64,000 bases of DNA from Tubiluchus corallicola. Taxonomy: Eukaryota > Animalia > Priapulida. The DNA is taken from positions 55,653-119,652 of the forward strand of contig JAQGDQ010000478.1 of assembly GCA_030141605.1 (NCBI GenBank), read 5' to 3'. The notes below the pieces were generated by a model. It was not told the DNA's origin. It was given only the letters and a program-made list of their open reading frames with translations, and did no database searches. Shown here one piece after another: positions 42,501 through 45,500 of this stretch; position 1 is the stretch's first letter; each line of letters starts with the position of its first letter. Position numbers and translations under genes: made by a program.

Positions 42501-45500
42501 CTGCTTTTTTTAATATACGCTTGGCCTGGTGTGAAATCAATTGCACTACGCATTTTTTACAGTGGTTCGAACAGACAGCTTGAAGGGAAGGAGGGGACGG
42601 TTACCATCAAAACCAAAGAGTCCGCAGGAATCTCCACCATCTCCTCCAGTATCTCTCATCACGGCACTAGTCAGAGCTCATGTGGACACAACTCCAGATT
42701 TAGCTAATTTAGATTATTCCAAGGTAAGACTTAACAGAGCACATCAAGACTTTATGACACCTTACTTATGTCTCACCCATCTATATTGTGAATTTATGGT
42801 TTTTTATGTACAGAGCAGATTAACAATTATTTGTGGTGTATTAGAAACACTATTAACCTAGTTTCTACGTGGTCATTACGAATTACATGTATTTACATAG
42901 CAGTGGTCATTACTAATTACATGTATTTACATAGCAGTGGTCATTACTAATTACATGTATTTACATAGCATTTTATTTACTCAAGCAGGCTGTGCAACTG
43001 CTTGTTGTGTAATACCTTGTACTTGTTCATAATGTGGCACTTATATAAATAGGGAGCTCAGTAACTGCCTGTTGTGTGTTATAAAATGCGTCCTTTACAC
43101 GAATATCAGAGTATGCACATTTTCCAAGGAGAATAAGAATTTTTTCTAAAATGTGACGCGTTCATACTTTGGCACCCTAGGCTATAGCCTAGTTAGTCTA
43201 TTGGTTAATTCGCCCCTGGACTTTAATTAGTGTAACCTGAAATGACGTCATGCAGAAAAGAGGTGACATAATTTTGTGACTCTTATAGAGAAGCAACACT
43301 AAAGAAAATAAAGAAAAGCTTAGATTTAACATCAATTCAACAGCTATTACAAAAAAAGTTTTAGGTACAGATGTTTCTTGTTTGATGAAGCGTAAACATA
43401 GTAATTAGTAGCTACTCTATTATTATTTCAGGTTAATTAATAACTTTATACCTTATTTTGTTTGCAGTACAATGAACAGCCTTCTGCAGCGAGTCTAAAT
43501 ATGGCTGAAGACGTAAAGCAATTTTTCGACTTGCTCACCTCTTCCATAGATGTTATTCGAGTATGGGCAGATAAAATTCCGGGATTTTCAGAAATTTGTA
43601 AAGAGGACCAAGATCTGCTCTTTCAGTCGGCATGTCTAGAGTTGCTTGTACTAAGACTAGCTTATAGGTAAGCCATGATCCGCTTTCAGTAGATTAGCTT
43701 ATAGGTAAGCCATGATCCACAATCAGTAGATTAGCTTATAGGTAAGCCATGATCCGCAATCAGTAGATTAGCTTATAGGTAAGTCATGATCCGCAATCAG
43801 TAGATTAGCTTATAGGTAAGCCATGATCCGCAATCAGTAGATTAGCTTATAGGTAAGCCATGATCCGCAATCAGTAGATTAGCTTATAGGTAAGCCATGA
43901 TCCACAATCAGTAGATTAGCTTATAGGTAAGCCATGATCCGCAATCAGTAGATTAGCTTATAGGTAAGCCATGATCCACAATCAGTAGATTAGCTTATAG
44001 GTAAGTCATGATCTGCAATCAGTAGATTAGCTTATAGGTAAGCCATGATCAGTAGATTAGCTTATAGGTAAGCCATGATCCGCTTTCAGTAGATTAGCTT
44101 ATAGGTAAGCCATGATCCGCAATCAGTAGATTAGCTTATAGGTAAGCCATGATCCTCAATCAGTAGATTAGCTTATAGGTAAGCCATGATCCACAATCAG
44201 TAGATTAGCTTATAGGTAAGCCATGATCCTCAATCAGTAGATTAGCTTACAGGTAAGCCATGATCCACAATCAATAGATTAGCTTATAGGTAAGCCATGA
44301 TCCTCAATCAGTAGATTAGCTTACAGGTAAGCCATGATCCGCTTTCAGTAGATTAGCTTATATATAAGTCATGATCTTCAATCAGTAGATTAGCTTACAG
44401 GTAAGCCATGATCCGCTTTCAGTAGATTAGCTTATATATAAGTCATGATCAGCAATCAGTTACTAGTATTTGCACTTTTGTTGTTTGGTTCCTAAATGTG
44501 ACAGTAATTCTGCTATCTATTTCTAGTGCTTTGAGGAGTTTTTTCAAACTCATAAATAATGTACCAAAATTTCATCTAGAAGCCAATTTGCTAAAAAGAA
44601 AATGTGTAAAAATAATTGTGTTTGCAGCAGTAAATTGTTGCTCCATTCACGTATTCTAATGTTATCAACAGGGTCGCTGCATGATATCGTACGATACATG
44701 TTTAGTTAATAATTCCCTGTTTTCTGTTTTTATTTTAGAATTTATATATAAGTTTTAACCATAGATCTAAATGTTCAAAGAGAGAGACTTTAGACTCACA
44801 CAAATTGTTAAGCAACAATTGGTGCCAATGAGCAACATTGTTGCCTTAAGCATCATATACAAAGTATTTATTGATATTGTTGGCTAGGTAATCACTCTCT
44901 GTTCAGTGATGGCATGAAATCTAATAGTCTGGTTAAATAATCACCTGTCTGTGTTGTTCAGGATGAATGCAGGTGATGAAAAACTTATCTTCTGCAATGG
45001 TGTTGTGCTTAATCTCAACCAGTGTGAGCACACGTTCGGTGAATGGATGCAGGCAATTTCTGAGTTCTCACAATCCCTTCATCAAATGCCGTTAGATATT
45101 TCAGCGTTTGCATGCATGTGTGCATTAACCTTAATTACAGGTATGTCAGTGAAAAATTCGAAATGCGAAAACAGTTATTGTTATTGTTTCCTCTTAAGAG
45201 ACCAAAATTTTTTGCATAAAGAATGATCTCAGTTATTCACACACCTTGCTCAGCTGCCTACAGATTGGTATTTCGGTCAGAAGGAGTGTTCCGGCCAACT
45301 AGTGAGCATTTATTAGTATAGGGTTAACCTGTATCATCCGACTGGATCTGGGCGGGCAAAATTATAAACTCAAAATATTGTATATTTTAAATTTTTTACT
45401 TTGGAATTAAATTTCTCAACATAATTCATTCATTACCTTAACAAGTAATGTACTTCTTCTATAAGTTATAATGCTTATTATTCATTAATTTAACAAGTAA

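What the first reader, a model, noticed from the sequence alone, without database searches (positions are those of the whole stretch)
43658..44460. NR4A 5' splice site amplified into an array of 19 extra intact donors
Seen: the 37-bp unit includes the last 10 exonic nt and the donor (TAGCTTATAG|GTAAGC). I count 19 further intact AG|GTAAG copies and two decayed ones. Two copies read GTAAGT and three read CAG|GTAAG, closer to U1 consensus than the true donor. Any downstream donor leaves TAT AGG TAA in frame, truncating the receptor mid-LBD. Inference: the array could be a copy-number-tunable poison/NMD switch, a U1 sink, or a run of YAG|GT recursive-splicing sites. If it is silent, the spliceosome is ignoring 19 decoys, which itself needs explaining.
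Basis: partly seen in the sequence, partly recalled or inferred. Interest (0 to 1): 0.85.

Follow-up and report, generated by a model that had tools for sequence, protein, structure and literature searches.

The report
Splice-donor minisatellite in priapulid NR4A
In a nuclear-receptor (NR4A/HR38) gene, likely from a priapulid worm, a 37-base piece covering an exon's end and its splice signal is repeated 22 times in a row; this repeat type is already known from human and lancelet genes, and the cell likely uses the first, genuine signal, so it is probably a harmless oddity and not a switch.

Summary
In detail: 22 units of 37 bp (43654-44460), 19 extra intact AG|GTAAG donors, two decayed; any downstream donor leaves an in-frame TAA. 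Read depth and flank contigs argue against an assembly artefact. The gene is NR4A/HR38, closest to Priapulus caudatus. The layout is a known kind: the human F7 intron-7 37-bp VNTR (also CBS, 6-16, lamin B2, PDGF) and lancelet 'mirages', where the first donor dominates and F7 splicing ignored copy number. Here the Priapulus protein model and one RNA-like contig from an ~88%-identical relative follow the first donor; no RNA from an array carrier was available, so silence of the decoys is inferred. Donors are not more conserved than the rest of the unit (p=0.5), minisatellites fill 15% of the window, and the units lack acceptor features, so recursive splicing is unlikely. Against my reading: two-site experiments favour the downstream donor beyond ~30-45 nt, and CBS and 6-16 leak to nearby decoys. 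The scan found this layout before on other DNA. Likely neutral; low interest.

The parts
43468..43667 (+). NR4A ligand-binding-domain exon (200 nt, YNEQ...LRLAY + AG), internal exon between 744-nt and 1294-nt introns
   Evidence: PF00104; NR4A1/2/3, HR38 E~1e-18 against 1e-5 for other receptors
43665..43673 (+). True 5' splice site TAG|GTAAGC (cut after 43667), inside unit 1
   Evidence: restores the frame into 44962; P. caudatus protein reads LRLAYR-MNPG; relative's contig joins this exon end to 44962
43669..43671 (+). In-frame TAA inside the true donor, kept by every downstream donor
43654..44460 (+). Minisatellite, 22 units = 14 exonic + 23 intronic bases; 12 unit types, order ABCDCCBCBEFGCHBHIHJKJL
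43657..43657 (+). Synonymous C (Leu CTA) in the real exon; units 2-22 and the relative's transcript have T
43702..43710 (+). Donor 2, first decoy, the most likely leak site (exon would be 237 nt)
   Evidence: opening energy like donor 1; by analogy with CBS and 6-16
43776..44006 (+). Span holding the two GTAAGT decoys (cuts after 43778 and 44000)
44024..44053 (+). Unit 11, 7-bp deletion (30 bp), donor intact
44250..44406 (+). Span holding the three CAG|GTAAGC decoys (cuts after 44252, 44326, 44400)
   Evidence: two of them have the highest predicted opening energies
44350..44460 (+). Diverged 3' edge: units 20 and 22 have lost the donor; units 19-20 and 21-22 form a two-unit repeat
44461..44961 (+). 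Unique rest of the intron with the acceptor (AG at 44960-44961)
44962..45140 (+). Next LBD exon (179 nt)
45861..46117 (+). Last coding exon to the stop; its junction is the one that would mark the premature stop for NMD

Best explanation
This is a 22-unit minisatellite whose unit spans the exon end and 5' splice site of an NR4A ligand-binding-domain exon, and it is likely a neutral by-product of a repeat-prone genome in which the spliceosome likely uses the first donor and removes the 19 copies with the intron. Shown: the array, its donors, the in-frame stop, the intact gene. Inferred origin: slippage or unequal crossover duplicated a 37-bp piece across the boundary (short matching words lie at both edges), then amplified and homogenised it; the real exon later took a synonymous T-to-C change. 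Inferred mechanism: the exon is defined from its acceptor to the first usable donor (200 nt; the others would need 237-933 nt), as in the upstream-first selection shown for human F7. Any small leak, most likely at donor 2 or 3, would carry a premature stop and would probably be cleared by NMD.
For: Same anatomy as F7 IVS7, where only the most upstream donor is used, decoys of consensus value up to 91 do not compete, and 1-12 units gave the same pattern (PMC1557585); lancelet mirages reported not to disturb splicing (PMC3087553). Gene intact, 61-91% identical to P. caudatus NR4A in all six matched exons, with the junction at donor 1. One contig of run X6 (RNA by guess, ~88% identical relative, depth 49.6) has unique exon sequence up to the donor-1 position joined to 44962, and no unit-to-exon joint was listed (only 2 X6 records laid). 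Donor 9-mer not spared: 4 of 12 variant alleles fall in 9 of 37 positions, binomial p=0.50, and two copies are dead. 12 minisatellites cover 15.1% of the window; crude chance that one is seeded over a given donor is 0.5%. Stronger-looking decoys lie 111-733 nt from the true donor and gain one consensus match each.
Against: No RNA from an animal known to carry the array was examined, and contigs drop rare forms; X6 may lack the array. With two strong donors in HeLa assays, use of the intron-proximal (downstream) site rises beyond ~30 nt and is ~100% at 45 nt or more (PMC3413131, passages); spacing here is 37 nt and the ladder spans 733 nt. In CBS and 6-16 two pseudo-sites are used besides the real one, and perfect-consensus decoys took 70-90% of splicing in F7. 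The true donor has the fewest consensus matches of the five donors scored in this gene (7 of 11 against 8-9). All mechanistic precedent is mammalian or lancelet.
Confidence: 0.78

Rival explanations
1. Functional poison switch: downstream donors take a sizeable, copy-number- or condition-dependent share of splicing, lowering NR4A dose through NMD or making a receptor cut after ...LRLAYR (DNA-binding domain kept, 144 C-terminal residues lost).
For: All 19 decoys give a premature stop well upstream of the last junction. Downstream preference beyond 30-45 nt in two-site assays. Leak in CBS and 6-16. A human intronic VNTR in TERT acts as a length-dependent splicing/NMD switch, by a G-quadruplex and not by donors (PMC11830802, abstract). 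Mammalian NR4A2 has NMD and low-activity splice forms (PMC12471074, passages).
Against: No excess conservation of donors; unit number did not matter in F7; the stop is an accident of the consensus GTAAG in this frame (shown by sequence); many other arrays of like size and homogeneity lie nearby.
Confidence: 0.12
2. U1 loading or sink: the decoys bind U1 snRNP without being cut and so change local splicing rate or protect the transcript; a cell-wide sink is the strong form.
For: Two U1 snRNPs can occupy alternative donors at once in complex E (PMC3413131); 19 sites with 7-8 of 11 consensus matches.
Against: 19 sites on a few nascent transcripts are negligible beside roughly 10^5-10^6 U1 per cell (recalled, mammalian figure). 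Most decoys are predicted to be paired in the nascent RNA, though not more than in shuffled controls. Nothing here tests U1 binding.
Confidence: 0.04
3. The YAG|GT in each unit acts as a recursive splice site, or a unit's TTTCAG acts as acceptor for a 15-nt in-frame micro-exon (44090-44104).
For: YAG|GT is present in 19 units. Four units carry CCGCTTTCAG with 10 of 17 pyrimidines; one sits 422 nt from the true donor and 15 nt before an intact donor. [quoted passage not shown]
Against: Pyrimidines at -20..-4: 8-9 of 17 against 11-14 of 17 at all 6 real acceptors; 2-3 upstream AGs against 0. The AG is simply the copied exon end. Fly recursive sites need juxtaposed 3' and 5' motifs, occur mostly in introns over 40 kb, and nearly all segments exceed 1 kb (PMC6110457, passages); this intron is 1294 nt.
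Confidence: 0.03
4. The array, or most of its length, is an assembly artefact.
For: No record spans the whole array; the 5' junction was not examined in reads; depth could come partly from unit copies elsewhere in the genome, which is not held.
Against: 12 unit types in an ordered pattern; contigs cross the 3' junction with 0 differences; depth 42-106 times the flank; a second sample from another study (X3) has a 67-nt record covering two tandem units.
Confidence: 0.03

Closest known systems
Human F7 intron 7 (IVS7) 37-bp VNTR (Borensztajn et al. 2006, PMC1557585; parts 1-5 of 6 read)
   Same: 37-bp unit, first unit spans the exon-intron boundary, identical donors repeated at 37-nt spacing into the intron behind an internal exon.
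   Different: 22 units against 5-9; 14 exonic bases against 4; AT-rich TAG|GTAAGC donor; all decoys give a premature stop (two do not in F7); unrelated sequence and independent origin; splicing not measured here.
Human CBS IVS13, 6-16 (IFI6) intron 2, lamin B2 and PDGF intron 4 minisatellites (known to me only through the introduction of PMC1557585)
   Same: 10-25 repeated donors after the real one; copy number in the same range as here.
   Different: CBS and 6-16 use two pseudo-sites as well, lamin B2 and PDGF only the real one; which pattern applies here is untested.
Lancelet 'mirage' minisatellites (Adh3, globins BflGb6 and BflGb9; PMC3087553, passages read)
   Same: Invertebrate tandem duplications of an exon-intron boundary, many units with splice signals, homogenised core with diverged edge units.
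   Different: Different phylum (likely Priapulida); length polymorphism and normal splicing were shown there, not here.
Recursive splice sites (Drosophila; PMC6110457, passages read)
   Same: AG|GT core.
   Different: No acceptor motif, short intron, 37-nt spacing.
Length-dependent splicing VNTRs such as TERT VNTR6-1 (PMC11830802, abstract only)
   Same: Intronic minisatellite of like unit size and copy number, with an NMD-prone outcome possible.
   Different: Acts through a G-quadruplex with a measured effect; here no effect is shown and the unit is AT-rich.

Membership tests
Exon-intron boundary minisatellite (F7-type / mirage) | First unit spans an exon-intron boundary | tested here: met
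   Unit 1 = 43654-43690, cut after 43667
Exon-intron boundary minisatellite (F7-type / mirage) | Head-to-tail copies repeat the splice signal into the intron | tested here: met
   19 of 21 further units keep AG|GTAAG
Exon-intron boundary minisatellite (F7-type / mirage) | Homogenised core with diverged boundary units | tested here: met
   Full-length units 2-16 and 18 differ from the consensus by 0-2 bases; units 1, 17 and 19-22 by 3-5
Exon-intron boundary minisatellite (F7-type / mirage) | Authentic (most upstream) donor dominates splicing | tested here: inconclusive
   One contig from a relative and a protein model follow donor 1; no RNA from an array carrier
Exon-intron boundary minisatellite (F7-type / mirage) | Length polymorphism (VNTR) | tested here: inconclusive
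   Second sample holds at least two tandem units; no allele length measurable from contigs
NR4A/HR38 nuclear receptor | C4 zinc-finger DBD plus LBD with NR4A as best matches | tested here: met
   PF00105, PF00104; the 18 best PDB sequences are NR4A/HR38; 89% to P. caudatus NR4A2-like
Recursive splice sites | 3' splice-site motif joined to the 5' motif at AG|GT | tested here: not met
   8-9 of 17 pyrimidines and 2-3 upstream AGs, against 11-14 and 0 at real acceptors
Recursive splice sites | Long intron, segments over about 1 kb | tested here: not met
   1294-nt intron, 37-nt steps
Recursive splice sites | Intermediate junction or lariat reads | not testable with these tools
   No raw RNA reads were listed
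Regulated poison-splice (AS-NMD) switch | Alternative form carries a premature stop far upstream of the last junction | tested here: met
   212-908 nt for the 19 intact decoys; the 50-55 nt rule is recalled
Regulated poison-splice (AS-NMD) switch | Alternative form is made and rises on NMD block | not testable with these tools
   No suitable RNA
Regulated poison-splice (AS-NMD) switch | Selective conservation of the poison signal | tested here: not met
   Donor positions vary as often as the rest, p=0.50; low power, 12 alleles; no cross-species intron was available

The most novel reading that the evidence does not exclude
The array is a heritable rheostat on HR38/NR4A: donor 2, as open as the real donor in the folding model, and a few further copies take a share of splicing that scales with unit number, sending message to NMD or making a truncated, possibly dominant-negative receptor, while the self-pairing of the unit and one synonymous change in the real exon bias choice back to the first donor.
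Probability: 0.08. Interest if true: 0.6.

Novelty: new member of a known kind. Interest (0 to 1): 0.18.

Why it matters
As read here it is one more natural test case for upstream-first 5' splice-site choice, probably in a priapulid, a group for which I saw no published case (ten searches, none aimed at priapulids, so this is weak). It is a clean case: 19 near-identical donors at 37-nt spacing, in the range where two-site experiments switch to the downstream donor, and every wrong choice is a nonsense. Junction counts would test directly whether the F7 rule holds outside chordates. If use scaled with copy number it would be a mutable dose control on an immediate-early receptor, but nothing found points to that.

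Tried and rejected
Whole-genome survey for other copies of the unit or other boundary arrays: no genome held. RNA from the same organism: no RNA holder listed; this is no evidence on expression. X3 (share 0.18) was laid in the hope that it was RNA, but 4 of its 5 records include intron sequence, so it behaves as DNA. Hairpin masking as the reason for silence: the unit pairs with itself and its neighbour, most decoys cost more to open than donor 1 (about 5.5-7.5 against 4.1-4.5 kcal/mol with 8-30 nt of downstream RNA) and CAG units 17 and 19 cost most (8-10.5); the z-score of -4.75 uses a control unfit for repeats; with the donor fixed and the other 28 bases shuffled, 79 of 300 controls folded as well and 57 of 300 masked the donor as much; donors 2, 12, 13 and 21 are as open as donor 1 in some settings and the differences largely vanish with 60 nt downstream. 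Rejected as a special feature; at most a contributor. The synonymous C at 43657 as a compensating change: it lowers opening cost by 0.5-1.0 kcal/mol at 37 C for short nascent ends but not consistently at 10 C or at +37; not supported. UAG density (73 per kb against 16 in the gene's other introns) could favour the upstream donor through hnRNP A1-type proteins (recalled); untested, and it is one unit counted 22 times. Likeness of the truncated product to mammalian Nurr1a is recalled only: two searches and the passages did not give its break point. One search for a recalled UPF3A VNTR case found nothing. PMC10078293 passages gave no repeated-donor case. No supplements were read.

Full report
Observation. 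Tandem Repeats Finder gives one array at 43654-44460, period 37, 22.0 copies, 91% matches. Splitting it gives 22 units: 14 bases that copy the exon end and 23 that copy the intron start. Unit 1 holds the real boundary. Of the 21 further units, 19 keep AG|GTAAG and two (20, 22) have lost the GT. Two read GTAAGT and three CAG|GTAAG.

Gene. Six exons (38987-39904, 40937-41250, 42563-42723, 43468-43667, 44962-45140, 45861-46117) join with GT-AG ends into one 675-codon frame. Pfam finds the C4 zinc finger and the ligand-binding domain (3 of 4 pieces matched). The exon before the array matches NR4A1/2/3 and HR38 at E about 1e-18, other receptors at 1e-5 or worse. The last exon is 89% identical to Priapulus caudatus NR4A2-like and at most 80% to the other 119 listed hits, so the animal is likely a priapulid. 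The P. caudatus protein maps to all six exons at 61-91% and reads LRLAYR-MNPG across this junction, which fixes 43667 as the ancestral donor and 44962 as its partner.

Result of a wrong choice. The donor reads TAT AG|G TAA, so every downstream donor keeps a TAA at 43669-43671 and cuts the protein at codon 531 of 675. For the 19 intact decoys the stop is 212-908 nt upstream of the last junction, an NMD layout by the recalled 50-55 nt rule. The exon would grow from 200 to 237-933 nt.

Is it real? No genome is held. Six runs were listed, none on record as an RNA holder; four were laid on 44364-46590. X1 and X2 (one sample, perhaps the source of the assembly, so not independent) have contigs from 44421 into unique intron with no differences, and summed depth in the first bin of 370 against about 8, and 13,561 against 128-184. 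A crude simulation gives 54-fold for the 22 units as assembled, 18-fold for 12 and 7.6-fold or less for 8 or fewer; observed ratios are 42-46 and 74-106. With a 48-base minimum the model gives only 11-fold for 22 units, so it supports many copies, not an exact number. X3, from another sample and study, with its own variants, has a 67-nt record over 44387-44450 with 4 unlisted differences, so at least two tandem units. The 5' junction was not examined in reads.

Which donor is used? X6 (same species label, RNA by guess, but about 88-90% identical, so a relative) gave 2 records. One, 186 nt at depth 49.6, matches from 44960 and has a 62-base loose end whose last 30 bases match 43636-43665 at 28 positions, both differences synonymous. 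It carries unique exon sequence, not unit sequence, so it is the donor-1 product. No joint from a unit to 44962 was listed. This is one contig from an animal that may lack the array; it confirms the junction, not the silence of the decoys. It also has T at 43657, like units 2-22 and unlike the window's exon, which suggests the array was copied from an older form of the exon (inference; convergence is possible).

Selection and base rate. Among the 21 full-length units, 4 of 12 variant alleles fall in the 9 donor positions, as expected by chance (p=0.50; low power). Intact donors thus follow from recent amplification. Divergence is at the edges, as described for lancelet mirages. The window has 12 minisatellite blocks covering 15.1%; if seeded at random at that density, about 0.5% of donors would be caught (crude, no selection), so many cases per genome are expected. 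Notes from this scan list 10 findings with these words in at least 9 other genomes (unchecked AI notes, not evidence).

Mechanism. PMC1557585 (parts 1-5 of 6 read) studies the same layout in human F7: a 37-bp unit over the exon 7 donor. Only the most upstream functional donor was used; killing it moved splicing to the next; decoys up to consensus value 91 did not compete; 1 to 12 units gave one pattern; perfect decoys took 70-90%. Its introduction lists 6-16 and CBS (two pseudo-sites also used) and lamin B2 and PDGF (real site only). PMC3087553 (passages) names such arrays mirages in lancelets and reports normal splicing. I therefore infer exon definition to the first donor here. No decoy is a perfect consensus; five gain one match. 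Against this, PMC3413131 (passages) reports downstream use rising beyond about 30 nt and complete at 45 nt or more with two competing sites, and the true donor here scores lowest of the gene's five (7 of 11). Some leak at donor 2 or 3 is plausible.

Structure. The unit can pair its exon-derived half with the donor, and the C that makes CAG look stronger also completes the pairing; units 17 and 19 are the hardest to open. But a control with the donor fixed and the rest shuffled matched the folding in 79 of 300 and the masking in 57 of 300, and donor 2 is as open as donor 1. Structure is at most a contributor.

Other readings. Recursive splicing fails on sequence: 8-9 of 17 pyrimidines and 2-3 upstream AGs against 11-14 and none at the six real acceptors, in a 1294-nt intron, while fly sites are mostly in introns over 40 kb (PMC6110457, passages); one listing reports a broader size range (PMC10156609, listing only). 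A cell-wide U1 sink is implausible on numbers (recalled). A tunable poison switch has partial precedent in TERT VNTR6-1 (abstract) and NMD forms of NR4A2 (passages) but no support from this locus.

Verdict. Real, ordinary in kind: a new member of the F7-type/mirage class, likely neutral (0.78), with a switch not excluded (0.12). Interest 0.18. Other papers seen: PMC10078293 and PMC10419244 (passages, nothing bearing); no supplements read.

Noticed in passing
window 62376-63291, - strand: A 16-bp x 57 array carries 44 donor-like 9-mers (CAG|GTTAAT 38, CAG|GTAAAT 6) on the minus strand; whether it lies in a transcribed intron was not checked.
   Followed up: no
window 59671-60953: A 64-bp x 20 array has GTAAG in each unit on the + strand, with a poor exonic side.
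   Followed up: no
window 35313-36076: Q/H/S/P-rich open frame with good splice ends upstream of NR4A, perhaps an N-terminal exon; its phase does not fit 38987 directly and BLASTP to the P. caudatus protein is not significant.
   Followed up: partly
window 43649-43660 and 44461-44466: Short matching words (TACTA, ACTAG) at both edges of the array may mark the microhomology that seeded the first duplication.
   Followed up: no
window 44090-44104: Possible 15-nt in-frame micro-exon between a weak TTTCAG acceptor and donor 13; it would add SRLAY. No evidence of use.
   Followed up: partly
window 45171-45415: Run X2 shows a second haplotype in the next intron: a 13-base skip, six substitutions with a 1-base gap, and loose ends of 255 bases at 45378 and 45415 that suggest an insertion.
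   Followed up: no
window 45887: X3 has A>G (Lys to Glu) in the last exon in one contig of depth 2.5; may be an error.
   Followed up: no
window 46604-47063: A 53-bp-based repeat block starts about 490 bases after the NR4A stop codon, possibly in or beside the 3' UTR.
   Followed up: no
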